From: a virus
Length of the DNA: 12,443 nucleotides
Direction: 5' to 3' (one strand)
IMG/VR virus record: IMGVR_UViG_3300030339_000025
The position numbers were made by a program, and so were the translations under genes. This document shows positions 1 through 12,382 of the stretch, in pieces; within the stretch, counting starts at the first letter, position 1; each line of letters opens with the position of its first letter. Under the pieces are notes generated by a model. It did no database searches. It saw only the letters and a program-made list of their open reading frames with translations, and was not told the DNA's origin.

Positions 1-121
1 TTAACTGGTCTTTATAAAGTTCTTCGTCAAAGAAAACAACTACATCTTTAGTGTCGTTGATGAATTTGACTTTCCGATTTCTAACCTTGGTTTTCAATAT
101 ACTCTTTAATTGTTTTTTCAC
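1..121 (-). CDS. Partial ORF running off the left edge of the window. An open frame reads ...VKKQLKSILKTKVRNRKVKFINDTKDVVVFFDEELYKDQL and continues past position 1. It overlaps the 3' end of tnpA in another frame and has no ATG, only a possible GTG at 119-121.
   Basis: Manual translation of the - strand at 1-124. The frame is closed by a TAA at 122-124 and open through position 1. The residues look protein-like (charged), but no start or homology is identifiable. Confidence 0.25.
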   Translation of the reverse strand, partial: MKKQLKSILKTKVRNRKVKFINDTKDVVVFFDEELYKDQL

Positions 122-500
122 TTACATTTCCGATTGACGACACAAAATAACCATCCGACCAAAATGTTCTTTCATTCCAAAACTGATTGCGTAAATAAAC
201 ACCATACAACTTCCATATTTCAATCGTAGACATTTGCTTTAACCTATTTACTATCTGTAGTGGTGATACGGATGGTTGGGTTGAAACTAATATATGTATG
301 TGATCCTCATCACCACATTCCATCAAATCAATATCGAAATCATACCTTTTTGATATGTTAGTCAAAATCAATTTCATATCATCACTGATTGGTGTTTTTA
401 ATAACCTTTTCCTATATTTCACCACAAATATCATATGATATTTCAATAAATACTTGGAATGATTTTTTGTCTTATAATCCTCAAAAACCATCATAACCAT
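81..500 (-). CDS. tnpA: IS200/IS605-family transposase TnpA (HuH, Y1 single-strand DNA transposase)
   Basis: 139 aa. N-terminal YHMIFVVKYRKRLL, HuH motif HIHILV, and C-terminal catalytic Tyr context SEKTIKEYIENQ are all typical of IS200-like Y1 transposases. It is divergently oriented to tnpB, as in IS605. Confidence 0.9.
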   Translation of the reverse strand: MVMMVFEDYKTKNHSKYLLKYHMIFVVKYRKRLLKTPISDDMKLILTNISKRYDFDIDLMECGDEDHIHILVSTQPSVSPLQIVNRLKQMSTIEIWKLYGVYLRNQFWNERTFWSDGYFVSSIGNVSEKTIKEYIENQG

Positions 501-584: not shown

Positions 585-1829
585 ATGAAAGTAATTAAAT
601 ATACATATAAATTCAGGCTTGATCCTAATCAAGAACAACAAACCTTACTAAACAAGCATTTTGGCTCTGTTAGATGGACTTATAATTACTTTCTAAACCA
701 ACGAAAAACGGAATACCTTAATAACAAAAAATCATTAAACTATTACGACCAAGCAGCAGAACTAACCCAAATCAAAAAAGTTAATGAATGGCTGAAAGAA
801 ATTAATAGTCAAACATTACAATACTCTCTGAAATGTCTTGATATGGCTTACCAAGGTTTCTTTAATAAAAGAACCAAATTTCCTAATTTTAAGTCAAAAC
901 GAAACAAAAATTCATTTACTATACCACAAAATGTTAGATATGATGGAACTAAATTAATTGTTCCAAAATTTCTTGATGGAATAGAAATGATAATGGAAAG
1001 ACAAATTAAAGGCATTATAAAACATTGTAATATATCAAAAACTCCTACTGGAAAATACTTTGTATCAATTCTAACTGAACTTGAATATCAACCTGTTAGA
1101 AAGACAAACCAATCAGTAGGAATAGATTTAGGTATAAAAGACTTTTTAGTGTTATCTAATGGAACGAAAATCAAGAACCATAGATTTCTAAAACACTACG
1201 AAAGAATTTTAGCTGAAAATCAAAAATATCTATCAAGAAAAACCAAACAATCAAATCGTTACGAAAAACAACGACTAAAACTTGCTAGAATTTATGAGAA
1301 AGTTACCAATTCTAGAATGGATTTAATTCATAAAACAACTAATAATCTAATTCATAATTTTGATATTATTTATTTAGAAGATTTAAATATTAAAGGAATG
1401 AGTAAAAGGTGTAAGCCAAAGCAAGATGAAAATGGAAAGTATTTACCTAATAATCAATCGGCAAAATCAGGATTAAATAAATCTATTTTAGATGTTGCTT
1501 GGGGAACTTTCATAGATACACTTGAATACAAAGCATTGTGGAATGACAAACAAGTTATTCATATTGATAGGTTCTTTCCATCTTCTAAAGCCTGTTCTAA
1601 ATGTGGCTGGATTAATAATAATTTAACCTTGAAAGATAGAAATTGGATTTGTCCTAAATGTGGTGAAAAGCATGATAGAGATATAAATGCCGCAATCAAT
1701 ATCCTTAATGAAGGATATCGTAAAAATATATCAGATGGAACGTCTGATTACGAGCGTGGAGCAAAAATAAGACCAATTTCGACTGGCACAAGCAACGAAA
1801 CGCTTAAAAAGAAGGAACTCGTTTCCTGA
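585..1829 (+). CDS. tnpB: IS605 OrfB / TnpB RNA-guided endonuclease-family protein. Structural relative of Cas12; in a eukaryotic virus context it would be Fanzor-like.
   Basis: 414 aa. The N-terminus YKFRLDPNQEQQTLLNKHFGSVRWTYN matches the OrfB_IS605 N-domain. RuvC-I is D in VGIDLGIKDF, RuvC-II is E in IIYLEDLNIKG. The zinc finger is CSKCGW...CPKCGEKHD, followed by RuvC-III RDINAAINI. All catalytic residues are present. Confidence 0.9.
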   Translation: MKVIKYTYKFRLDPNQEQQTLLNKHFGSVRWTYNYFLNQRKTEYLNNKKSLNYYDQAAELTQIKKVNEWLKEINSQTLQYSLKCLDMAYQGFFNKRTKFPNFKSKRNKNSFTIPQNVRYDGTKLIVPKFLDGIEMIMERQIKGIIKHCNISKTPTGKYFVSILTELEYQPVRKTNQSVGIDLGIKDFLVLSNGTKIKNHRFLKHYERILAENQKYLSRKTKQSNRYEKQRLKLARIYEKVTNSRMDLIHKTTNNLIHNFDIIYLEDLNIKGMSKRCKPKQDENGKYLPNNQSAKSGLNKSILDVAWGTFIDTLEYKALWNDKQVIHIDRFFPSSKACSKCGWINNNLTLKDRNWICPKCGEKHDRDINAAINILNEGYRKNISDGTSDYERGAKIRPISTGTSNETLKKKELVS

Positions 1830-1931: not shown

Positions 1932-3989
1932 ATGAAAATAACACAAGGAGTTTTAAAATATTGCAAAATTTATAATGTTACATTTGAAGATAAGTATTCC
2001 AATATAAAAACTATAAAATCAATTGAAAATTTCGATTCAAAATTTTCAAGTAATTCAGGTACGTCTCAAACTTCTACTGTTTTATCCAATAATAATAGTT
2101 ATTATAACGTAGTTGAAGAGAGCAATATAAATAATGGTCGAATATTATATAATTGTGATGTTGAAAATGGCAGATTTTTAAATTCTACATTCTTATCATT
2201 AAATAATGCTAATCATATTACTGATGGATATTTTAGTGGCTGCACTTTTTCTGGTTATACTATCAATGGCGGGCAATTTTTTGATTGTACAATACATTCT
2301 GGATGTACTTGGAATAATGGACAATGGAACGATGGAACTTTCAATGTTAGTTGGACTGGTGGAGTTTGGAATAAAGGAATTTTTCCATTTTTAATTTGGC
2401 CCGCTGGTATTTTTAATGGCGGTATTTTTAAATTTCCATCTGTATGGATTACAGGCGTTGCAAATGGCGGAATTTTTAGTGGAATAACTTGGAATCATGG
2501 TTTAGTTCGTAATGGAGATTTTCTTGATTGCACATTTATGAGTGGTTCTTTTAATAATGGAAATTTTAGTGATGGAACATTTATTGGTGGTATTTTTAAT
2601 AATGGAAAAATGGATAATTCAGTTATTAGCGGAGGTATTTTTAATGATGGTACAATTTCAAATTGTACAGTTAGTGGCAATACAGAAATTAATGGTGGTG
2701 ATTTTTCAGATACAATTATAAATGATGGTAAAATTGTTAATATGAATGGTACAAATTTAATTGTAAATTATGGCAAGTTCTATAATGGCACTTATGATAC
2801 TATACAATTTATAACTGGAGATATATATAATGGTTTATATTTGAATTCATCTGGTATTACATCAGGTTTAACAATACATAATGGTACATTTAAGAAGAGT
2901 GCATTTTGGCTAACTAATATACATAATGGAAATTTTACAAATTGTTATTCAGAAAATGTAAAATGGGATTATGGTATTTATACTGAAGGCTCAATGATGT
3001 TTAATCTTCCTGGGAGTTATTGGAATGATGGCTATTGGAATGATGGCATATTTACTGCGATTGATCCTATAGTTAGTATTCTTTCAAATGTGCAATCAAT
3101 TGATGCAATTACTACTACAACAACTGCTGCACCAACAACTACAACTACAACTACGATAGCACCACATTATATTGGTGAAAAAGTCAGTACAAATGGCGTG
3201 ATTTATGGCACTATTTTTTATCTATATTCTGGAGGTAAAAGCGGATTAATTTCTGCTAATGTAGATACCGCCACGATTACAGATCCAGATAGTTTTTGGG
3301 CTAGTGGCTCTGGTGGATATCAAAGCACAGGAGGACGCGGCACATCAATAGGAACTGGGCAAGCAAATAGTACTGCTATGCTAGCACAGCCTAAAACTAA
3401 TGGGCATGTAATAAAATATTGTCATGACTTATCATTAGGTGGATTCACTGATTGGTTTCTTGGTTCAAAATATGAGGTATTAGCACAATATTCAAATAGA
3501 TCACTTATTGGCGGTTTTTCTAATAACGGATATTGGTCAAGTACAGAATCTAATTATGATCATAGTATTGCTATTAACTTTGGAAATGGAGTTGCAGATA
3601 CGTGGTTAAAACATGATCATTTTTATGTTCGTGCAATTCGCTTTTTTGATGATACAATTGGAACATATACAAATGTTATAATTGATAATACTTCAAACGA
3701 TATAATAATAAACGATGTACAAATTGGCAATTCTTCTATTTTTGGTGTTATTTTTCCTATATCTACTGGTTCACATTACGTAGGAACTACTACATTAAAT
3801 TCTGAACTAACTACATTGATGATAAATTTTTCTAATATAACAGATAATAATCAAAGTATAAGTGTAAATATTAACTCTGTAAATTATTGTTATAATATGC
3901 CACATTCACCTATAATATCAATTCCTATAAATTTTATTAAAGGTCAAAATATTAATATAAGTGCTATTAATGCTAATTGTGTGTTTTAA
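1932..3989 (+). CDS. Large repeat-rich putative surface, fibre or adhesin protein. The N-terminal ~350 aa are roughly 7-residue Gly/aromatic repeats (NGGIF, NDGTF, SGxF) suggesting a beta-solenoid. Then comes an oligo-Thr linker (TTTTTAAPTTTTTTTIAP), then a DUF1566/Fib_succ_major (Lcl C-terminal)-like domain, then an Ile/Asn-rich C-terminal domain.
   Basis: 685 aa. The DUF1566-like signatures are GGFTDWFLGSKYEVLAQY (W.LP..EL..L-like) and GYWSSTE...AINFGNG......YVRAIRFF (yWSST....vRcVR-like). The Thr run is encoded by the ACN-rich tract at about 3107-3165. Confidence 0.75.
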   Translation: MKITQGVLKYCKIYNVTFEDKYSNIKTIKSIENFDSKFSSNSGTSQTSTVLSNNNSYYNVVEESNINNGRILYNCDVENGRFLNSTFLSLNNANHITDGYFSGCTFSGYTINGGQFFDCTIHSGCTWNNGQWNDGTFNVSWTGGVWNKGIFPFLIWPAGIFNGGIFKFPSVWITGVANGGIFSGITWNHGLVRNGDFLDCTFMSGSFNNGNFSDGTFIGGIFNNGKMDNSVISGGIFNDGTISNCTVSGNTEINGGDFSDTIINDGKIVNMNGTNLIVNYGKFYNGTYDTIQFITGDIYNGLYLNSSGITSGLTIHNGTFKKSAFWLTNIHNGNFTNCYSENVKWDYGIYTEGSMMFNLPGSYWNDGYWNDGIFTAIDPIVSILSNVQSIDAITTTTTAAPTTTTTTTIAPHYIGEKVSTNGVIYGTIFYLYSGGKSGLISANVDTATITDPDSFWASGSGGYQSTGGRGTSIGTGQANSTAMLAQPKTNGHVIKYCHDLSLGGFTDWFLGSKYEVLAQYSNRSLIGGFSNNGYWSSTESNYDHSIAINFGNGVADTWLKHDHFYVRAIRFFDDTIGTYTNVIIDNTSNDIIINDVQIGNSSIFGVIFPISTGSHYVGTTTLNSELTTLMINFSNITDNNQSISVNINSVNYCYNMPHSPIISIPINFIKGQNINISAINANCVF

Positions 3990-6368: not shown

Positions 6369-6659
6369 TTAGTGAATTAATTTTTCTAATTTTATCTTTC
6401 TTATAAATCTAATTCTTTTTTCTTTATCATATGCTATTTCTTGCAGCATTGATGATGTCATATCTGGTATTGTGCATTTTCTTTTATATTTACCACGATT
6501 TATTCTTTCAATAAATTCACAATTTATTAACATATTAATATAATTATCTATTGTTGACCCTCCTTTATCAATAATTTTCCTTTCAATTATTTCATTAGAA
6601 TTTATATAATTTCTAATTATTTCCCATTTGCTTATATTTTCAGGATAATTTATTTTCAT
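6369..6659 (-). CDS. 96-aa ORF in the same frame as the upstream homing-endonuclease fragment and separated from it by a single TAG codon. Either a C-extein remnant, a C-terminal extension of the homing endonuclease, or an independent small basic protein.
   Basis: 7139 and 6659 are in the same frame (480 nt apart). The sequence reads ...FITAN TAG ATA ATG AAA..., and the basic stretch GKYKRKCTIP follows. Confidence 0.4.
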   Translation of the reverse strand: MKINYPENISKWEIIRNYINSNEIIERKIIDKGGSTIDNYINMLINCEFIERINRGKYKRKCTIPDMTSSMLQEIAYDKEKRIRFIRKIKLEKLIH

Positions 6660-6662
6660 TAT

Positions 6663-7690
6663 CTAATTTGCAGTTATAAACATTTTTCCGTTTCTTCTAG
6701 CAATCCAAGTATTATATTTCTCCATTATTGGTGACCACATTACACCATCATAATATCCTTTTTGTATAATTGAATCTTTTGAATTTCTTAATAGTTTATG
6801 TGTTGATTCTGTTAATTGTGTATAATTAGCATAATTTTTAGAGAATATTCTATCTGCTGTATATCCAGCTAAAATACTTAATATTTGAGTTCTATCGTGA
6901 AAATCTTCATATTTTCCTCTTATAGCAAAAGATTTTGATGACCTTATACTACCATCACCATCTATAATTCCTTCTATTATTTTTTTTAATGTTTTTAAAT
7001 TTAAATTAAACATATTAAAATTAATTTTTTTATCTGGAATCAATTTTAAGAAAATATCTTTATATTTACTTCCAATTCTTATATCAATAACATCACAAAT
7101 TTGAATATCAGTATAATCATAAATATCAATTTTTTTCACAGATACTAGAGTGTCTTTATTTTTTTTTTATCACCATTATATCTATAGTATCGTTTTCTTT
7201 TACTATAAGTATATCCAATTTTTAAATTATTTAAACTATTTAAAATTTTATCAACAACATCATCATTCTTTGTATAATTTTGAGTAATTCCAATTCCATA
7301 TTTAACAATGTGACCATCTGTTATAATAATGCCTAACAAATATGCTAAATTTTCATCTATATTTTCAAAATTAGCAGTTCTTTTACAAGATGTTAAAATT
7401 TTATCATATTGTTTTAAATTTTCTGACTCACATATTTTTATTTTTCCATTATAATCTTCTATAACCATTTTATGACTTGGTGTTGAGATCATTGAAATTC
7501 TTCTACTATCAATAAATATAATAGGTCCATTATAATTATCTATTTTTATATTTTTTATTTTATCCCAAATTAAAAAATTTTCAATTATATCGTAAGATAA
7601 TACAAAATCGCCAATTATTAGTTCATTAAATTTTTTCCAACCATTTATAGTTAAACATTCAGTGTCTATATCTACGTAACTATTTTCCAC
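6663..7690 (-). pseudogene. Intein-like Hint domain with an embedded double-motif LAGLIDADG homing endonuclease. Split into two ORFs (7145-7690 and 6663-7139) in different frames. It ends with the intein-type terminal Asn immediately followed by TAG.
   Basis: Block A is CLTINGWKKFNELIIGDFVLSYD. Block B is ISTPSHKMVI (TxxH). LAGLIDADG motif 1 is LAYLLGIIITDGHI, in the first ORF. LAGLIDADG motif 2 is IIEGIIDGDGSI, in the second ORF. A block F/G-like C-terminus YYDG...NTWIARRNGKMFITAN is followed by a stop. The first ORF has no ATG (it begins with GTG), with an in-frame TGA at 7694-7696 only 11 codons upstream of the Cys. A T10 run lies at about 7158-7167, next to the frame break. Confidence 0.7.
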
Positions 7691-8510
7691 TATTCAATAA
7701 TTTTTCTTGTTTTCTTCTCTTTCGCTCTTGGTAAGTTATACCCTTGATAACATGTTTATCAATCTCTTTTTGATATTTCTCTAAATAATCATTTGAATTT
7801 TCCAATCTATTTTTAGCCATATCAAGATAATTGGCTGAAATATCAATACCGACATAATTGCAACCAAAAATTTTGCAACACACTGGAACAGTGCCTGACC
7901 CGCAATAAGGATCCAAAACAATTTTATCTTTATCATCATCAAATATAGAATATATAATTCTTGTTGGTATATCTAAAGAAAAAGGCGCTGGATGTGGATT
8001 ATTATTTTCTGGCATTATATCCCAAATAGCCATCATATTTGCATGTTTTGGAAGTAATTCCTTGCCTATTTTAGAATGATTTGGCTTATATAGCCAGTAT
8101 ATCCGTTCATCTGCTTGCCAGAACCTCCAACCTCTTAAATTACCTGTTATTTTTCTATTCCAAACAATTTCTTGTTTAATCATCCATTGTGTTTTATGAA
8201 GCCAAAGTATTGGATGAATCATATTTCCATTTACCCATCGACATTTATGATTATAAAAAAAAGATCCACCTGGTTTTATAGTTCTATATATTTCGTTTAG
8301 AACCTTTATTTGATTTTCTTGATAGATATCTTCTGGTATATTATCATCATAAGTATCATATTCAACTTTTTTAATTAGTGCGCCACTATTATTCTTCTTA
8401 TTATATACTGGACTCGTAATTCCAAGATCAAAATAATCAGAATCAATTTTTTGTAAAGTTTGTAGTGTATCACCTAATATTAATTCGTTTATTGGCCTCA
8501 TAAAATTCAT
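7680..8510 (-). CDS. DNA methyltransferase, beta-class N4-cytosine/N6-adenine type. The motif IV-like SPVY precedes motif I.
   Basis: 276 aa. DLGITSPVYN is a (D/S)PP(Y/F)-like motif IV near the N-terminus. VLDPYCGSGTVPVCCKIFGCNYVGIDIS is the FxGxG AdoMet motif I near the C-terminus. This order defines the beta permutation (PF01555-like). Confidence 0.85.
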   Translation of the reverse strand: MNFMRPINELILGDTLQTLQKIDSDYFDLGITSPVYNKKNNSGALIKKVEYDTYDDNIPEDIYQENQIKVLNEIYRTIKPGGSFFYNHKCRWVNGNMIHPILWLHKTQWMIKQEIVWNRKITGNLRGWRFWQADERIYWLYKPNHSKIGKELLPKHANMMAIWDIMPENNNPHPAPFSLDIPTRIIYSIFDDDKDKIVLDPYCGSGTVPVCCKIFGCNYVGIDISANYLDMAKNRLENSNDYLEKYQKEIDKHVIKGITYQERKRRKQEKLLNSGK

Positions 8511-8922: not shown

Positions 8923-10089
8923 TTATGGACAGCCAAAATATATAGTTGAATTTATTGTAATTATAGAAAATATATCTGGATCAGGTAAAATAAGTGATGT
9001 TCCAATAACAGTATAAAAATTATCAGAATCGTCTACTACTCTAGATGTAGTTATATATGATTGAGAACCACTAAAAGGACCAGCGCAATATGTATTATGT
9101 GTAATACAATTTTGTAATATATACCAATATAATTGTAATGTTGTAGTTGTAGTTGTAGGCACGACAGTTGTAGTTGTAGTAGGAACAATAGTTGTTGTGG
9201 TTGTTGGTGCCGCAGTTGTTGTAGTTATTGGTGTCGCAGTGGTTGTAGTTGTTGGTGCCGCAGTGGTTGTAGTTGTTGTAGGCGGTATAGTTGTAGTTGT
9301 AGTTGTAGTTGGAATAACTGTTGTAGTTGTAGTTGTAGTTGTTGTTCCAGTAATTAAATAAAAATCGTAAATTGTATTTTTTGTAATATCAATAGTAATA
9401 CCTGTAGGTGTATATCCATTTGCACTACAATTTACTATAAATGATCCAGGTGGAACAGCAAGTGAGTAATATCCATTTTCATTAGTATTACTATATACAC
9501 CAAGCGAATTTATAGTAATAGTTGCATTTGATATTGTTGCCCCAGTTATCGTATAAACTTCACCTTCAATAATTTCAAAAGTTCCTATATTACATTGATA
9601 ATATACTACACCATCTGAAATATCATTGAAATAATTTCCACTTCTACAGGACATTTTACTTAAATATTGATTTTTTAATAACATTCCTGGTGTAATATCA
9701 TTAAAATATCTATTTATAACTATTTCATTTCTATAATTATTTGTATATAAAATCTTATATCCAGTATAAAAATTTGAAAAAGCTATCGCAGGATTACTTA
9801 AATCAAATGTTCCAGAATTTATTATTGGTTCAGTATAAGTAATATAAACTATATCACCGATGGTGAAATTATTTTCAATTTCAGTATATAATTTTATGTA
9901 ACCTTTATAATTAGAGTATGTTTCTAAAATTTTAACAGCATTTCTAATATTTATATAACTATTGGTTTTTAAATTTATTTGACTTTGGATCAACGGCATG
10001 TTGCCACTTAATGAACTTGATACATTTGATGATTTTGCATTTGTTGCAATAGCTATAGGCTTTTTATTTTGAATAATTAAACGTGGCAT
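8923..10089 (-). CDS. Putative surface or fibre protein. The N-terminal region has a carboxypeptidase-regulatory-like (Cna-B-like) beta-sandwich segment. Then comes a long oligo-Thr linker, (T5-9 [AAP/IPP/IVP/VVP]) repeated 8 times. Then a small Cys-containing C-terminal domain.
   Basis: 388 aa. NGYYSLAVPPGSFIVNCSANGYTPTGITIDITKNTIYDFYL resembles CarboxypepD_reg. The linker is TTTTTTTTTVIPTTTTTTTIPPTTTTTTAAPTTTTTATPITTTTAAPTTTTTIVPTTTTTVVPTTTTTT. The C-terminus contains C..H..YC. Confidence 0.75.
   Translation of the reverse strand: MPRLIIQNKKPIAIATNAKSSNVSSSLSGNMPLIQSQINLKTNSYINIRNAVKILETYSNYKGYIKLYTEIENNFTIGDIVYITYTEPIINSGTFDLSNPAIAFSNFYTGYKILYTNNYRNEIVINRYFNDITPGMLLKNQYLSKMSCRSGNYFNDISDGVVYYQCNIGTFEIIEGEVYTITGATISNATITINSLGVYSNTNENGYYSLAVPPGSFIVNCSANGYTPTGITIDITKNTIYDFYLITGTTTTTTTTTVIPTTTTTTTIPPTTTTTTAAPTTTTTATPITTTTAAPTTTTTIVPTTTTTVVPTTTTTTLQLYWYILQNCITHNTYCAGPFSGSQSYITTSRVVDDSDNFYTVIGTSLILPDPDIFSIITINSTIYFGCP
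9127..9352. repeat. Tandem hexanucleotide-type coding repeat, (GTTGTA/GTTGTG)n on the + strand, encoding the oligo-Thr linker. It is similar in inverse orientation to the ACN tract at about 3107-3165.
   Basis: Visible tgtagttgtagttgtagg... periodicity in the sequence. Confidence 0.7.
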
Positions 10090-10136: not shown

Positions 10137-10694
10137 TTAATATCTATTTGGATATTTAAGATATGATTGTAATTCTCGCCAATCTAAATTTGTAATACCA
10201 TTATATCCTTTATCTATATAAAATTGAAAAAGTTTTTCTTGGGAAAGATTTTTTATTTTTTCAACTTCATTATTAATATAGTTTTTTGATACATTTATTG
10301 TTCTTTTTATAACTGGCATAAGATTTACGTTTAATTTTATCATCGCCATTGCTCTGTGCCTACCTTCTTGACCAGAGTTATTTACAGTATAAAATACTAC
10401 TGGAAATTTATCTCCATTTTTCATATTTTCTACATATTTATCTACTAATTTATCATTAATTGGAATTAAAGCGTCTTCATATGATAAATTCCCAAAATTT
10501 CTAGCAACAGTATAAATGTATTGTGTAGGACTGATATAAGTTAATTCTTCAATTGTTCTTTTCCAAAGTAATGAATATATGGGATTTTCATATGCTGAAT
10601 ACATATTTTTAATATTTTTCATATCAAAATACTTACAGCCATCACATATTTGTATATTTTCATTTAAAAAATCTTTTAATGCTAAAATTTTCAT
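10137..10694 (-). CDS. ParB/sulfiredoxin-fold (ParB-like nuclease domain) protein
   Basis: 185 aa. FPVVFYTVNNSGQEGRHRAMAMIKLNVNLMPV matches the ParBc core pattern (..G.HR..A....g...vPv). The rest has no recognisable motifs. Confidence 0.5.
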   Translation of the reverse strand: MKILALKDFLNENIQICDGCKYFDMKNIKNMYSAYENPIYSLLWKRTIEELTYISPTQYIYTVARNFGNLSYEDALIPINDKLVDKYVENMKNGDKFPVVFYTVNNSGQEGRHRAMAMIKLNVNLMPVIKRTINVSKNYINNEVEKIKNLSQEKLFQFYIDKGYNGITNLDWRELQSYLKYPNRY

Positions 10695-10726
10695 AAATTA
10701 TATATAAATTCTAAAAAATATAATTT

Positions 10727-11686
10727 TTAATCTTTATATCTTTCAAAAAATAAATTTGGATGTTTATATGTAATTTTTAACCGTTCCGCAAATGTTTTAT
10801 CTGATGTTGCGTCACCAACCATAATACAAGATTTTAAATCTAATTTATGTTTATGCATCATTAATATTCCAGTACCAGATTGAGGTTTTCTACAATAACA
10901 TACATCTTTTGGTGGTAGATGTGGACAAAAATTATAATCATCTATCACATAATCTAGTAATTCATTAGTTTTCTCAATAAGTTCTTTAACTCTTGAAATA
11001 GTTAATGTTTTTCTAGCCACACCAGATTGGTTAGTAACTGCAATTATTTTATAACCTTCTGCCTTATATTTTTTTAGAATTTCTTTACTATTTCTTAAAA
11101 TTTCAATATCTTTTACTTCCGTTGGATATGCTTCTACTCCATTACTTTTTCTAACTGTGCCATCTAGGTCAACAAATATTGCTTTATTAGTATATCCAAA
11201 ATTATCTTCTCTTACAAATTTTGTAGTTTCAATAGCATCAAAACCTTCTGAAATATTTAATTTTTCAATATTTTTTGCCATTGTAAAAATTGGAGTTATG
11301 ACAAATAAATTTGAAGTTTTATGTTTTGCCGGAACATCAGAAACATGCATATAAATTTCACCATATTGACTATACATACGATGTAATGAATTTATTAAGC
11401 AATCATCTTTTGATGTGTTAATATAATGACAACCAATTGTTAAGTTGTTGGTTTTTGCACAATCAATAAATTTTTTACGAGTAATTAATGTTGTATTTGT
11501 ATTGTCAATAATAACTTTATTACCTTTTTCAATCTCACGATTTAAGGCTGCTGTTTCAGTAGCAGAAGACATTGTTTTTTTATCTAAACTAAGAACTATA
11601 TAACCTAATTCTTCATATTTTTTTGTTATTGAACTTTTTCCTGATGCAGGTAAACCCATCATTACTACTATATCTGTTTTTAACAT
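10727..11686 (-). CDS. pnkp: Bifunctional polynucleotide 5'-kinase / 3'-phosphatase, with the T4 Pnkp-type domain order (kinase N-terminal, HAD phosphatase C-terminal)
   Basis: 319 aa. The P-loop is GLPASGKSS at residues 11-19, with LSLDKK and IIDNTN kinase motifs. HAD motif I is FVDLDGTV, motif II is VTNQSG, motif III is CRKPQSG, and motif IV is MVGDATSD (HAD-IIIA, PNKP/GmhB type). Confidence 0.85.
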   Translation of the reverse strand: MLKTDIVVMMGLPASGKSSITKKYEELGYIVLSLDKKTMSSATETAALNREIEKGNKVIIDNTNTTLITRKKFIDCAKTNNLTIGCHYINTSKDDCLINSLHRMYSQYGEIYMHVSDVPAKHKTSNLFVITPIFTMAKNIEKLNISEGFDAIETTKFVREDNFGYTNKAIFVDLDGTVRKSNGVEAYPTEVKDIEILRNSKEILKKYKAEGYKIIAVTNQSGVARKTLTISRVKELIEKTNELLDYVIDDYNFCPHLPPKDVCYCRKPQSGTGILMMHKHKLDLKSCIMVGDATSDKTFAERLKITYKHPNLFFERYKD

Positions 11687-11758
11687 TTTAAATTATTTAT
11701 TGTTTTTATTTCTTGATATTCTATAACTTTGTGACAATAACAAATTGGCGGCTTTTAT

Positions 11759-12382
11759 TTAACTTTTTAATCTTTCAGGAATATCTATTCCATTTGATAT
11801 ACAGTAATCTTTTACTGCTGTTTTTAATTTAGGACCAATTTTAATAGGTAATATGATTGATGGAGTTCTTGTCCAACCTAAAATACGAACCCAGCCTTTA
11901 TCTTGTAGTACACAGTATGGATATGTGTTATGATATGATGTCTCATAAGATTCTTTATCATTATCAAATAACCATTCAGAAGCAAAATTGTTGTGTTGTG
12001 CAATACCTACAACATATGATTTGCCAAAAGGATCAATCCACATAGAATCATATTGTCGTTTTAATTCTTGTTTTGCCTCAGTACTTTTTTTTGCTTTAAT
12101 TTTTTGAATTTTATCACCTTTGAAAACTAAACTTCCAGTAAGAGTTTTTTTGATTTCAACAGGTTTAATATCTTCATCAGTTTCTTCAAAATTAATAACG
12201 ACCCATTCAAATACTAATTCAAAATCAAATTTATCACAAAATTTTGAAATTTTTGAATCAACCCATTCTCTTGCATCATATGTTGATTCAAATGGATTTC
12301 CATCTAAAACAGTTTCAAAAATTACTTTTTCAAAACCGCCATATTGACAATGTGTACAAAAAAATGTTAATTTAGTTTTCAT
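11759..12382 (-). CDS. Hypothetical protein (207 aa) co-oriented with pnkp
   Basis: An ORF with a CTHC pair near the N-terminus and a conserved-looking C-terminus (GIAQHNNFASEWLF, SYHNTYPYCVLQDKGWVRILGW). No family recognised. Confidence 0.55.
   Translation of the reverse strand: MKTKLTFFCTHCQYGGFEKVIFETVLDGNPFESTYDAREWVDSKISKFCDKFDFELVFEWVVINFEETDEDIKPVEIKKTLTGSLVFKGDKIQKIKAKKSTEAKQELKRQYDSMWIDPFGKSYVVGIAQHNNFASEWLFDNDKESYETSYHNTYPYCVLQDKGWVRILGWTRTPSIILPIKIGPKLKTAVKDYCISNGIDIPERLKS

What the first reader, a model, noticed from the sequence alone, without database searches (positions are those of the whole stretch)
10137..12382. Co-oriented cassette: T4-type Pnkp (end-healing kinase/phosphatase), a ParB-like nuclease and an unknown 207-aa protein. 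Candidate nucleic-acid repair or counter-defence module.
T4 Pnkp, with exactly this kinase-N/phosphatase-C order, heals tRNA ends cut by host anticodon nucleases (PrrC) and works with an RNA ligase. Here no ligase is recognisable. The adjacent 207-aa protein (11759-12382) is unclassified and could be the missing sealing, 2H-phosphoesterase or end-modifying partner. The ParB-fold protein could supply nuclease or NTPase activity. The spacers are short (32 and 72 nt), which suggests co-expression.
Basis: partly seen in the sequence, partly recalled or inferred. Interest (0 to 1): 0.6.

Follow-up and report, generated by a model that had tools for sequence, protein, structure and literature searches.

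The report
Phage RNA-repair island missing its ligase
The three genes are real, but they are what is left of a variable RNA-repair island of a large phage: the end-healing enzyme (Pnkp) is intact, the RNA ligase that sits beside it in related phages is absent here, the unknown 207-aa protein is not a ligase but recurs just upstream of RNA ligases in unrelated phages, and the ParB-like gene looks like an unrelated passenger.

Summary
Observation confirmed. Three co-oriented minus-strand ORFs lie at the stated coordinates, with 72- and 32-nt spacers.

The 319-aa protein is a kinase-N/HAD-phosphatase-C Pnkp with every catalytic motif intact.

The 185-aa protein carries the ParB/Srx signature ([D/E]GxHRxxA, invariant in its family). 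Its best fold matches are ParB/Srx proteins, but none is significant.

The 207-aa protein (p207) has two small domains joined by a Lys-rich disordered linker. It has no KxDG motif, no pair of HxT/S motifs and no ligase, 2H or Tpt1 fold match.

Interpretation partly supported. In the closest relatives, an Rnl2-type RNA ligase (PF09414) plus an HNH protein sit exactly between p207 and pnkp. The window's Pnkp is nested inside that ligase-bearing clade, so the ligase was most likely deleted here.

The ParB-like gene is absent from several relatives. Outside close relatives it never neighbours repair genes (0 of 75 loci).

New lead: in phage contigs that share nothing else with the window, p207 homologues again lie directly upstream of repair genes. 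One arrangement is HNH::Rnl followed by an HD-Pnk healing enzyme. The other has an RtcB ligase about 0.9 kb downstream. In about 1.9 Mb of control viral DNA these enzymes were found 0 times. p207 may therefore be an undescribed non-catalytic accessory of phage RNA repair. This rests on gene neighbourhood only.

The parts
11759..12382 (-). p207: 207-aa protein of unknown function. N-domain covers aa 1-88 (nt 12119-12382). A Lys-rich disordered linker covers aa 89-107 (nt 12062-12118). C-domain covers aa 108-207 (nt 11762-12061) and carries the motifs SxWIDPxG...H...A...GWxRILGW...YC.
   Evidence: ORF. AF2 model with mean pLDDT 83.5, two domains and a linker with pLDDT below 50. Family alignments A1 and A4. 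157 representatives in the profile search. C-domain belongs to PHROG 31560, function unknown. No Pfam, NCBIfam, PADLOC or PDB sequence match.
11687..11758 (-). 72-nt spacer between p207 and pnkp. This is the position where close relatives carry an Rnl2-type RNA ligase and an HNH gene, with or without extra homing-endonuclease genes. It is the inferred deletion junction.
   Evidence: Gene orders in L007/L089, L005, L099, L095 and L172. Junction alignment A3. No ligase hit in the window or in L001.
10727..11686 (-). Pnkp: bifunctional polynucleotide 5'-kinase / 3'-phosphatase of the P-loop kinase + HAD-IIIA type. The kinase domain is about aa 1-160 (nt 11207-11686) and the phosphatase about aa 166-319 (nt 10730-11191). 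Motifs: GLPASGKS at residue 11, Asp35, DNTN at 61, DLDGT at 173, TNQSG at 218, CPHx6CxCRKP at 254, GDATSD at 291.
   Evidence: Pfam AAA_33 + PNK3P. NCBIfam HAD-SF-IIIA and Histidinol-ppas domain above cut-off, PNK-3'Pase in two stretches. PDB matches: both domains of mammalian PNKP, Pnkp1, T4 Pnk. Motif conservation in 9 relatives.
10137..10694 (-). 185-aa ParB/Srx-superfamily protein. The signature E110-G-R-H-R-A-M-A117 lies at nt 10344-10367. Its activity is unknown.
   Evidence: Invariant QEGRHRA in 36 homologues. PHROG 1033 'ParB-like', E=0.004. AF2 pLDDT 92.3. Foldseek top PDB hits are pNOB8 ParB-N, sulfiredoxin, PadC, ParB and Noc, with best E=0.033. No Pfam or NCBIfam hit.

Best explanation
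The region is a partly dismantled copy of a hypervariable RNA-repair island in a large, probably huge, low-GC phage.

(1) Pnkp. The 319-aa protein is an intact end-healing enzyme. Its P-loop kinase phosphorylates 5'-OH ends. Its HAD-IIIA phosphatase removes 3'-phosphate, and probably 2',3'-cyclic phosphate, from broken RNA such as tRNA cut by host anticodon nucleases. The architecture and motifs are shown. The substrate is inferred from the family and from linkage to an RNA ligase in relatives.

(2) The ligase. The sealing partner in this lineage is an approximately 208-aa Rnl2-type ligase (PF09414) paired with an HNH protein. In relatives the pair lies exactly between p207 and pnkp. In this genome it was most likely deleted, leaving a 72-nt spacer. 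Sealing must then depend on a ligase elsewhere in the genome or in the host, or the pathway is incomplete. This is inferred from phylogenetic nesting.

(3) p207. It is not an enzyme of the ligase, 2H or Tpt1 kinds. It has two small alpha+beta domains joined by a Lys-rich flexible tether. It recurs directly upstream of RNA ligases and healing enzymes of different families in non-syntenic phages. It is most likely a non-catalytic accessory, for example a substrate-binding, protein-binding or targeting factor, of phage RNA repair. The association is shown. The role is inferred.

(4) The ParB/Srx-like protein is a passenger of the same variable island and has no specific tie to RNA repair.
For: Pnkp:
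- Pfam, NCBIfam and PDB matches.
- All catalytic motifs are conserved in 9 relatives.
- The protein is 100% identical on the four retrieved contigs, which come from four samples.

Ligase in relatives:
- L007/L089: p207 - Rnl - LAGLIDADG - HNH - Pnkp.
- L005: truncated p207 - Rnl - 136 aa - HNH - Pnkp.
- L099 and L172: p207 - Rnl - HNH - Pnkp.
- L095: p207 remnant - Rnl - HNH - Pnkp.
- L010: Rnl - HNH - Pnkp - ParB-like.
- In the NJ tree the window's Pnkp is sister to L005+L007, with L010 and L090 (both ligase-bearing) outside.
- There is no ligase hit in the window or within 10 kb beyond p207.
- None of the 120 best ligase homologues lies on a 75-76 kb contig like the window's.

p207 association:
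- L154=L165 (425 kb) and L117 carry p207 - HNH::Rnl - HD+AAA_33 (HD-Pnk type), followed by PTH2 in L154.
- L097 carries p207 - 3 small ORFs - RtcB, with tRNA-Glu downstream.
- These loci share no other gene with the window's 20-kb neighbourhood, apart from one NUMOD3-type homing-endonuclease match in L154/L165.
- Controls: 0 Rnl, RtcB or Pnkp in 128 unrelated viral loci (1.35 Mb) and 0 in 65 more loci (0.56 Mb).

The ParB-like gene as a passenger:
- It is absent downstream of Pnkp in L005, L007 and L009.
- It is present without Pnkp in L015, L174 and L175.
- 0 of 75 more distant ParB-like loci have Rnl, Pnkp or RtcB within 6 kb.
- Distant relatives sit beside portal-like and terminase-like genes, as judged by eye from their sequences.

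Literature: kinase-HAD (PKN-HAD), HD-type healing enzymes and HNH-fused Rnl2 are described components of jumbo-phage RNA repair (PMC7824862).
Against: - The p207-repair link rests on only 2-3 independent lineages. At least four other lineages have p207 with no repair gene nearby: DnaJ in L108, PolB in L111, a 5'-3' exonuclease in L098, L152 and L169, and a split p207 gene in L123 and L151.
- L171 has p207 followed, after one small opposite-strand ORF, by the fibre-like gene, with no island at all.
- p207 is truncated or degraded in two ligase-bearing relatives (L005, L095). This argues against an obligatory partnership.
- Only 20.6 kb of the 75-kb contig could be read, so a ligase elsewhere in the genome is not excluded.
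- The direction of the event (loss here versus gains elsewhere) is a parsimony argument on a small NJ tree.
- The phosphatase domain scores higher against GmhB and HisB-N models than against DNA-3'-phosphatase models, and it has their CxHx6CxC zinc loop. A non-polynucleotide substrate is therefore not excluded.
- No activity was tested.
Confidence: 0.55

Rival explanations
1. The three genes form one functional cassette in which p207 supplies the missing sealing, 2H-phosphoesterase or Tpt1-like activity, and the ParB-like protein supplies nuclease or NTPase activity.
For: The genes are co-oriented with short spacers and no predicted terminators between them. No ligase is present locally. p207 is linked to repair genes elsewhere.
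Confidence: 0.04
2. Pure juxtaposition. p207 is a backbone gene that happens to border an insertion hot spot. Its adjacency to repair genes reflects where mobile, HNH-associated cassettes land, not a shared function.
For: The segment between p207 and the fibre-like gene differs in nearly every relative, and in L171 it is reduced to a single small opposite-strand ORF. Homing endonucleases and an intein populate it. p207 is degraded in L005 and L095. Several lineages lack any repair neighbour.
Against: Adjacency recurs in L117/L154 and L097, which share no backbone genes with the window. It involves two unrelated ligase folds (Rnl and RtcB) and two unrelated healing enzymes (HAD-Pnkp and HD-Pnk). 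The background frequency of these enzymes was 0 in about 1.9 Mb of viral loci.
Confidence: 0.3
3. The kinase-phosphatase heals DNA ends rather than RNA ends, as mammalian PNKP does. It would restore 5'-P/3'-OH at DNA breaks for a DNA ligase, which would explain why it persists without an RNA ligase.
For: The best PDB matches for both domains are mammalian PNKP (E=4e-14). The gene is intact and identical in four samples despite the absence of a local ligase. T4 Pnkp itself acts on DNA and RNA (established knowledge).
Against: In several relatives the gene is linked to an Rnl2-type RNA ligase, not a DNA ligase. In L154 and L117 the corresponding position is held by an HD-Pnk, with PTH2 beside it in L154, which is a translation-related context.
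Confidence: 0.12
4. The protein is not a polynucleotide enzyme. It is a small-molecule kinase fused to a GmhB- or HisB-like sugar or histidinol phosphatase, possibly tied to the sugar-nucleotide genes about 5 kb upstream.
For: The highest NCBIfam scores are to GmhB (E=7e-26) and the histidinol-phosphatase domain. The GmhB-type CPHx6CxCRKP zinc loop is conserved. DegT and epimerase genes lie upstream in L001.
Against: The GmhB equivalog score (90.8 bits) is far below its cut-off (178). PF08645 PNK3P passes its gathering score. The kinase domain matches the PNKP kinase. The gene is linked to an RNA ligase in relatives.
Confidence: 0.05

Closest known systems
Phage T4 Pnkp (PseT) with Rnl1/Rnl2: the tRNA anticodon-break repair pathway that counters PrrC
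   Same: One polypeptide with an N-terminal P-loop 5'-kinase and a C-terminal DxDxT HAD phosphatase. The Walker A motif, Asp35 and DLDGT are present. In relatives the gene sits with an ATP-dependent RNA ligase of the Rnl2 family (PF09414).
   Different: Sequence similarity to T4 Pnkp is marginal (E=0.0027 over 56 aa). The phosphatase has a GmhB/HisB-type zinc loop. The relatives' ligase is an approximately 208-aa protein consisting essentially of the nucleotidyltransferase domain, paired with an HNH protein. In this window the ligase is absent.
'PKN-HAD' kinase-phosphatase and HNH-fused Rnl2 RNA-repair genes of jumbo phages (Iyer et al. 2021, PMC7824862)
   Same: The same components and logic: an ATP-grasp-type RNA ligase plus a kinase fused to a HAD phosphatase, with HD-type healing enzymes as alternatives and HNH associated with Rnl2. 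The nearest GenBank phage matches are 462- and 595-kb 'huge phage' assemblies.
   Different: No protein corresponding to p207 appears in the passages of that paper that were retrieved. Here the island has lost Rnl and HNH.
Runella slithyformis HD-Pnk (HD phosphoesterase + P-loop kinase) RNA-repair cluster
   Same: The L154 and L117 relatives of p207 sit upstream of an HD + AAA_33 protein with this architecture, next to an RNA ligase.
   Different: That enzyme is not in the window. It is relevant only as evidence that p207 accompanies end-healing enzymes of different folds.
ParB/sulfiredoxin superfamily (ParB N-domain, Srx, PadC, Noc; phage 'ParB-like nuclease domain' proteins)
   Same: The [D/E]GxHRxxA signature is present, and ParB/Srx structures are the top fold matches.
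   Different: No Pfam ParBc hit, and no Foldseek match with E at or below 0.001. The protein has extra N- and C-terminal helices and no HTH or dimerisation domain. No nuclease, CTPase or kinase activity can be assigned.
Repeat domains of unknown function in phage and plasmid 'polyvalent proteins' (Iyer et al. 2017, PMC5512222)
   Same: The p207 C-domain also occurs as 2-6 matched stretches in proteins of about 400-2650 aa, and in one case next to a topoisomerase IB core.
   Different: No Pfam model, LPD models included, matches it. Whether those large proteins are polyvalent proteins in the published sense was not tested.

Membership tests
T4-type bifunctional Pnkp (P-loop kinase + HAD phosphatase; 'PKN-HAD') | N-terminal P-loop kinase with a Walker A motif GxxxxGK[ST] | tested here: met
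   GLPASGKS at residues 11-18, conserved in 9 relatives. Pfam AAA_33, 43.2 bits against a cut-off of 27.
T4-type bifunctional Pnkp (P-loop kinase + HAD phosphatase; 'PKN-HAD') | Kinase general-base Asp about 20 residues after the P-loop, and the DNTN-type substrate-binding segment | tested here: met
   Asp35 in LSLDK, and DNTN at residue 61. The segment aligns with the mouse PNKP kinase domain. The equivalence to T4 Asp35 is from memory of the T4 literature.
T4-type bifunctional Pnkp (P-loop kinase + HAD phosphatase; 'PKN-HAD') | C-terminal HAD phosphatase with the DxDxT nucleophile motif and HAD motifs II-IV | tested here: met
   DLDGT at 173, TNQSG at 218, CRKP at 264-267, GDATSD at 291. Pfam PNK3P, 50.2 bits against a cut-off of 22. 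TIGR01662 HAD-SF-IIIA, 78.3 bits against 44.6.
T4-type bifunctional Pnkp (P-loop kinase + HAD phosphatase; 'PKN-HAD') | Domain order kinase-N / phosphatase-C | tested here: met
   AAA_33 at residues 7-98 and PNK3P at residues 170-314.
T4-type bifunctional Pnkp (P-loop kinase + HAD phosphatase; 'PKN-HAD') | Detectable sequence homology to T4 Pnkp itself | tested here: inconclusive
   PDB 1ltq matches at E=0.0027 over residues 168-223 only. No T4-like phage is among the tblastn hits at E<=1e-5.
T4-type bifunctional Pnkp (P-loop kinase + HAD phosphatase; 'PKN-HAD') | 5'-kinase and 3'-phosphatase activity on polynucleotide ends | not testable with these tools
   Needs biochemistry.
Phage RNA repair module (healing enzyme + RNA ligase) | An RNA ligase encoded with the healing enzyme | tested here: not met
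   No Rnl or RtcB hit in the window or in the 20.6-kb locus L001. The feature is met in relatives L005, L007, L010, L090, L095, L099 and L172. The rest of the 75-kb contig could not be read.
ParB/Srx superfamily (for the 185-aa protein) | [D/E]GxHRxxA phosphate-binding signature | tested here: met
   E110-G-R-H-R-A-M-A117. E110, G111, H113, R114 and A117 are invariant in 36 homologues. The consensus form of the motif is from memory.
ParB/Srx superfamily (for the 185-aa protein) | ParB/Srx fold | tested here: inconclusive
   Most of the best-ranked Foldseek PDB hits are ParB-N, Srx, PadC, ParB or Noc. The best E-value is 0.033 and TM-scores are at most 0.31 when normalised to the query length. 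The AF2 model is confident, pLDDT 92.
ParB/Srx superfamily (for the 185-aa protein) | Match to the curated ParBc model, or nuclease activity | tested here: not met
   No Pfam or NCBIfam family at E<=0.1 or E<=0.01 respectively. Only PHROG 1033 at E=0.004. Nuclease activity is not testable here.
ATP-dependent RNA/DNA ligase (nucleotidyltransferase) - considered for p207 | Motif I KxDG with the lysine nucleophile, and a nucleotidyltransferase fold of about 180 aa or more | tested here: not met
2H phosphoesterase (LigT/ThpR) - considered for p207 | Two HxT/S motifs in a duplicated beta-alpha fold | tested here: not met
Tpt1/KptA 2'-phosphotransferase - considered for p207 | Tpt1 fold and the conserved R-H-R-R tetrad | tested here: not met

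The most novel reading that the evidence does not exclude
p207 defines a new non-catalytic component of phage RNA-repair systems. It would be a two-domain adaptor with a flexible Lys-rich tether that serves ligases of unrelated folds (minimal Rnl2-type enzymes and RtcB) and healing enzymes of unrelated folds (HAD-Pnkp and HD-Pnk). It might do so by recruiting damaged tRNA, or by supplying in trans the substrate-binding domain that these minimal ligases lack. Its C-domain would be a widespread interaction module that is also used in tandem arrays in giant phage proteins.
Probability: 0.3. Interest if true: 0.65.

Novelty: new variant of a known kind. Interest (0 to 1): 0.45.

Why it matters
Phage RNA repair (Pnkp plus an RNA ligase) is the classical counter to host anticodon nucleases, and its enzymes are well catalogued. 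Two points here go beyond the catalogue.

1. A natural lineage keeps an intact Pnkp after losing the adjacent ligase-HNH pair. This raises the question of what a healing enzyme does alone: use of another ligase, DNA-end repair, or a pathway in decay.

2. An uncharacterised protein family recurs directly upstream of RNA ligases and end-healing enzymes of different folds. The family has no Pfam model, no solved relative and no significant fold match.

If p207 is a real accessory factor, it would add a substrate-targeting or scaffolding layer to RNA repair. It would also give a handle on a domain that is repeated in giant phage proteins. If it is not, the region is an ordinary mosaic island in a large phage.

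Tried and rejected
- p207 as a ligase, 2H or Tpt1 enzyme: rejected on motifs, domain size and fold searches.
- Sequence and profile searches of p207 against PDB with profiles A1, A4 and A5 found nothing below E=0.09.
- Pfam scans of the large multi-repeat relatives and of 62 C-domain proteins gave no family for the domain. PHROGs gave only phrog_31560, function unknown.
- PADLOC: no hits for any of the three proteins.
- Foldseek against AFDB50 was unavailable.
- The search for related loci with the broad p207 alignment failed for lack of a conserved stretch.
- A degenerate DNA pattern for GWxRILGW retrieved seven further viral loci with p207 homologues, three full-length, two at contig ends and two split, plus one GTDB contig that is the same 425-kb contig as L154. 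The GWxRVLGW variant retrieved none.
- Looking for a ligase elsewhere in the window's phage: only 20.6 kb of the 75-kb contig is reachable, because look-ups are restricted to window proteins. None of the 120 best Rnl homologues lies on a 75-76 kb contig. This is not conclusive.
- The ParB-like protein as a Pnkp partner: rejected by context statistics (0 of 75 loci).
- The ParB-like protein as part of the nearby methyltransferase: not supported, because it has no hit to phrog_67.
- tRNA genes and Rfam RNAs in the window: none.
- The key review of RNA-repair contexts (Burroughs & Aravind 2016) is not held in the library.
Full report
**1. Observation**

The window (about 25% GC) has three consecutive minus-strand ORFs at exactly the reported coordinates:
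- 11759-12382, 207 aa, called p207 here.
- 10727-11686, 319 aa.
- 10137-10694, 185 aa.

The spacers are 72 and 32 nt. The three ORFs are the upstream end of a longer co-directional block that runs down to 6369. A simple scan found no terminator-like site between them. The sequence occurs on 23 or more contigs. The four retrieved, from four samples, give 100% identity for p207 and Pnkp and 99-100% for the ParB-like protein. These are real genes and not chance ORFs.

**2. The 319-aa protein**

Family matches:
- Pfam places AAA_33 at residues 7-98 and PNK3P at 170-314, both above gathering score.
- NCBIfam places the C-terminal half in HAD-IIIA. TIGR01662 and TIGR01656 score above their cut-offs. 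PNK-3'Pase (TIGR01663) matches in two stretches.
- In PDB, both domains match mammalian PNKP best (E=4e-14), but in swapped order. Weaker matches are Capnocytophaga Pnkp1 and T4 Pnk (E=0.0027, residues 168-223 only).

All catalytic motifs are present and conserved in nine relatives: GLPASGKS (11), Asp35, DNTN (61), DLDGT (173), TNQSG (218), CRKP, and GDATSD (291). The phosphatase also carries a CPHx6CxC loop of the GmhB/HisB-N kind (the comparison to GmhB is from memory).

The enzyme is therefore a kinase-N/HAD-phosphatase-C Pnkp. It shares its architecture with T4 Pnkp, but it is only distantly related to it in sequence. It corresponds to what a jumbo-phage survey calls 'PKN-HAD' (PMC7824862).

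**3. The 185-aa protein**

- No Pfam or NCBIfam hit. PHROG 1033 'ParB-like partition protein' matches at E=0.004.
- More than 66 homologues exist. An alignment of 36 shows an invariant QEGRHRA, which fits the ParB/Srx signature [D/E]GxHRxxA.
- The AF2 model is confident, pLDDT 92.3.
- Its best Foldseek hits in PDB are pNOB8 ParB-N, sulfiredoxin, PadC, ParB and Noc. None reaches E<=0.001; the best is 0.033.

I accept membership of the ParB/Srx superfamily as likely. 'Nuclease' is unsupported.

**4. p207**

- No hit in Pfam, NCBIfam, PADLOC or PDB sequences.
- The AF2 model, built with 15 homologues, has mean pLDDT 83.5. It shows an N-domain (beta-hairpin, two helices, beta-hairpin; aa 1-88), a disordered linker rich in Lys (aa 89-107, pLDDT below 50) and a C-domain (aa 108-207).
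- BFVD gives a best E of 0.024, to an uncharacterised protein.
- There is no KxDG motif. The single HxT lies in a variable stretch of the family alignment.
- An exhaustive profile search found 157 representatives. About 45 are full length.
- N-domain-only and C-domain-only proteins of roughly 45-160 aa also exist. The C-domain is also matched 2-6 times in proteins of about 400-2650 aa, and once beside a topoisomerase IB core.
- The C-domain corresponds to PHROG 31560, of unknown function.
- Invariant positions in 45 full-length members are F7, S113, W115, G120, H130, A134, L159, G169, W170, Y193 and C194. Across the wider C-domain family only the Trp and His remain invariant. This looks more like a binding module than an active site. 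That reading is an inference.

**5. Neighbourhoods in relatives**

| Locus | Gene order |
|---|---|
| Window and L001-L004 | p207 - Pnkp - ParB-like - fibre-like 388 aa |
| L007/L089 | p207 - Rnl (209 aa, PF09414, E=1e-26) - LAGLIDADG - HNH - Pnkp - 106 aa - fibre |
| L005 | p207 truncated to the N-domain - Rnl - 136 aa - HNH - Pnkp - fibre |
| L099, L172 | p207 - Rnl - HNH - Pnkp |
| L095 | p207 remnant - Rnl - HNH - Pnkp |
| L010 | Dam - Rnl - two ORFs - HNH - Pnkp - ParB-like |
| L090 | Pnkp ... Rnl |
| L091, L092 | Pnkp with none of these neighbours |
| L015, L174, L175 | Rnl ... ParB-like, without Pnkp |
| L171 | p207, then one small opposite-strand ORF, then the fibre-like gene |

The stretch between p207 and the fibre-like gene is therefore a hypervariable island. 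Pnkp is usually accompanied there by an Rnl2-type ligase and an HNH protein.

In an NJ tree of Pnkp, the window is sister to L005+L007. L010 and L090 lie outside, and all four of these carry a ligase. One loss of Rnl and HNH in the window's lineage is the most parsimonious history.

The window and the 10 kb beyond p207 contain no ligase. None of the 120 best Rnl homologues lies on a contig of the window's size. The other 54 kb of the contig could not be read.

**6. p207 beyond the close relatives**

In three groups of loci p207 is essentially the only gene shared with the window's 20-kb neighbourhood. The one exception is a NUMOD3-type homing-endonuclease match in L154/L165.
- L154 is a 425-kb contig. 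The same contig appears as L165, deposited as a 'Pacearchaeota' MAG. Together with L117 it has p207 - HNH::Rnl - an HD + AAA_33 protein (HD-Pnk architecture). In L117 the ligase is interrupted by an intein. In L154 a PTH2 gene follows.
- L097 has p207 - three small ORFs - RtcB, with tRNA-Glu downstream.
- Other lineages have unrelated neighbours: DnaJ (L108), PolB (L111), a 5'-3' exonuclease (L098, L152, L169, L170), or a split p207 gene (L123, L151).

As a control, no Rnl, RtcB or Pnkp was detected in 128 unrelated viral loci (1.35 Mb). None was detected in 65 further loci (0.56 Mb).

The association of p207 with RNA ligases and healing enzymes of different folds is therefore unlikely to be chance. 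It still rests on only two or three independent lineages. It is also weakened by the degraded p207 copies in L005 and L095.

**7. The ParB-like protein beyond the close relatives**

Of 75 viral loci with more distant ParB-like relatives, none has Rnl, Pnkp or RtcB within 6 kb. The most common neighbours of the distant relatives look like portal and terminase genes, as judged by eye from their sequences. Adjacency to Pnkp is limited to the window and L010.

**8. Synthesis**

The proposed three-gene module does not hold.
- The true sealing partner is an Rnl2-type ligase. It is present in relatives and missing here.
- p207 is not an enzyme of the proposed kinds. It is, unexpectedly, a recurrent upstream neighbour of RNA-repair enzymes.
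- The ParB-like gene is a passenger.

Mechanistically, Pnkp is expected to convert 5'-OH and 3'-P (or 2',3'-cyclic-P) ends into 5'-P and 3'-OH ends (family knowledge). Ligation in this phage needs a ligase that was not found locally. p207 is proposed to be a non-catalytic adaptor (inference).

The components and the logic are known for jumbo phages (PMC7824862). The nearest GenBank phage matches to the Pnkp are 462-kb and 595-kb uncultured phages.

**9. Verdict**

This is an ordinary phage RNA-repair context in a decayed state, plus one genuinely uncharacterised family with a suggestive association. Interest is moderate (0.45). Novelty: a new variant of a known kind.

Noticed in passing
window 6369-8510 (- strand): A complete N6_N4 DNA methyltransferase (7680-8510) is followed, with small overlaps or gaps, by three more ORFs. 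The first two carry intein/Hint and LAGLIDADG features: 7145-7690 starts '...DTECLTINGW', and 6663-7139 ends '...FITAN'. The third is a 96-aa winged-helix-like ORF (6369-6659). This looks like an intein-derived homing endonuclease broken across frames. The same ORF layout is called in contigs L001-L004.
   Followed up: no
window 81-500 (-) and 585-1829 (+): A divergent pair of ORFs at the left end of the window, which corresponds to the end of the 75-kb contig. They resemble IS200/IS605 tnpA (139 aa) and tnpB (414 aa), judged by eye from the translations only. The related contigs differ in the gene that runs over this end.
   Followed up: no
L154 (IMG/VR UViG_3300035208_004923) and L165 (GenBank JBBACR010000001.1): One 425,361-bp contig carrying p207, HNH::Rnl, HD-Pnk and PTH2 is listed both as a viral genome in IMG/VR and as a 'Candidatus Pacearchaeota archaeon' MAG contig. 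It is probably a huge phage binned as a DPANN archaeon. A ParB-like homologue (P0026) is similarly labelled Lokiarchaeota.
   Followed up: partly
L117 5080-7723; L154 11699-12889; L007 2634-2939: The HNH protein travels with the Rnl2-type ligase. It is fused to the ligase N-terminus in L154 and L117, and it is a separate ORF downstream of Rnl in the window's relatives. In L117 the ligase is also interrupted by an intein that carries a DUF7487/Vsr-like endonuclease.
   Followed up: partly
proteins P0138, P0145, P0148, P0209, P0215: The p207 C-domain (SxWIxPxG...H...GWxR) is matched 2-6 times in proteins of about 400-2650 aa that have almost no Pfam annotation. P0215 combines two copies with a eukaryotic-type topoisomerase IB core.
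   Followed up: partly
window 8923-10089 (-) and 1932-3989 (+): Two large proteins have long poly-Thr linkers (TTTTTT...). One has a CarboxypepD_reg-like domain and the other has Gly/Asn-rich repeats. They are probably fibre or adhesin proteins. The 388-aa one marks the downstream border of the variable island in all relatives.
   Followed up: partly
L015 5532-5954: In the 501-kb and 308-kb relatives, a 140-aa ORF with a Nudix-box-like sequence (judged by eye), preceded by a 66-aa ORF, lies between Rnl and the ParB-like gene in place of Pnkp. This is another swap within the same island.
   Followed up: no
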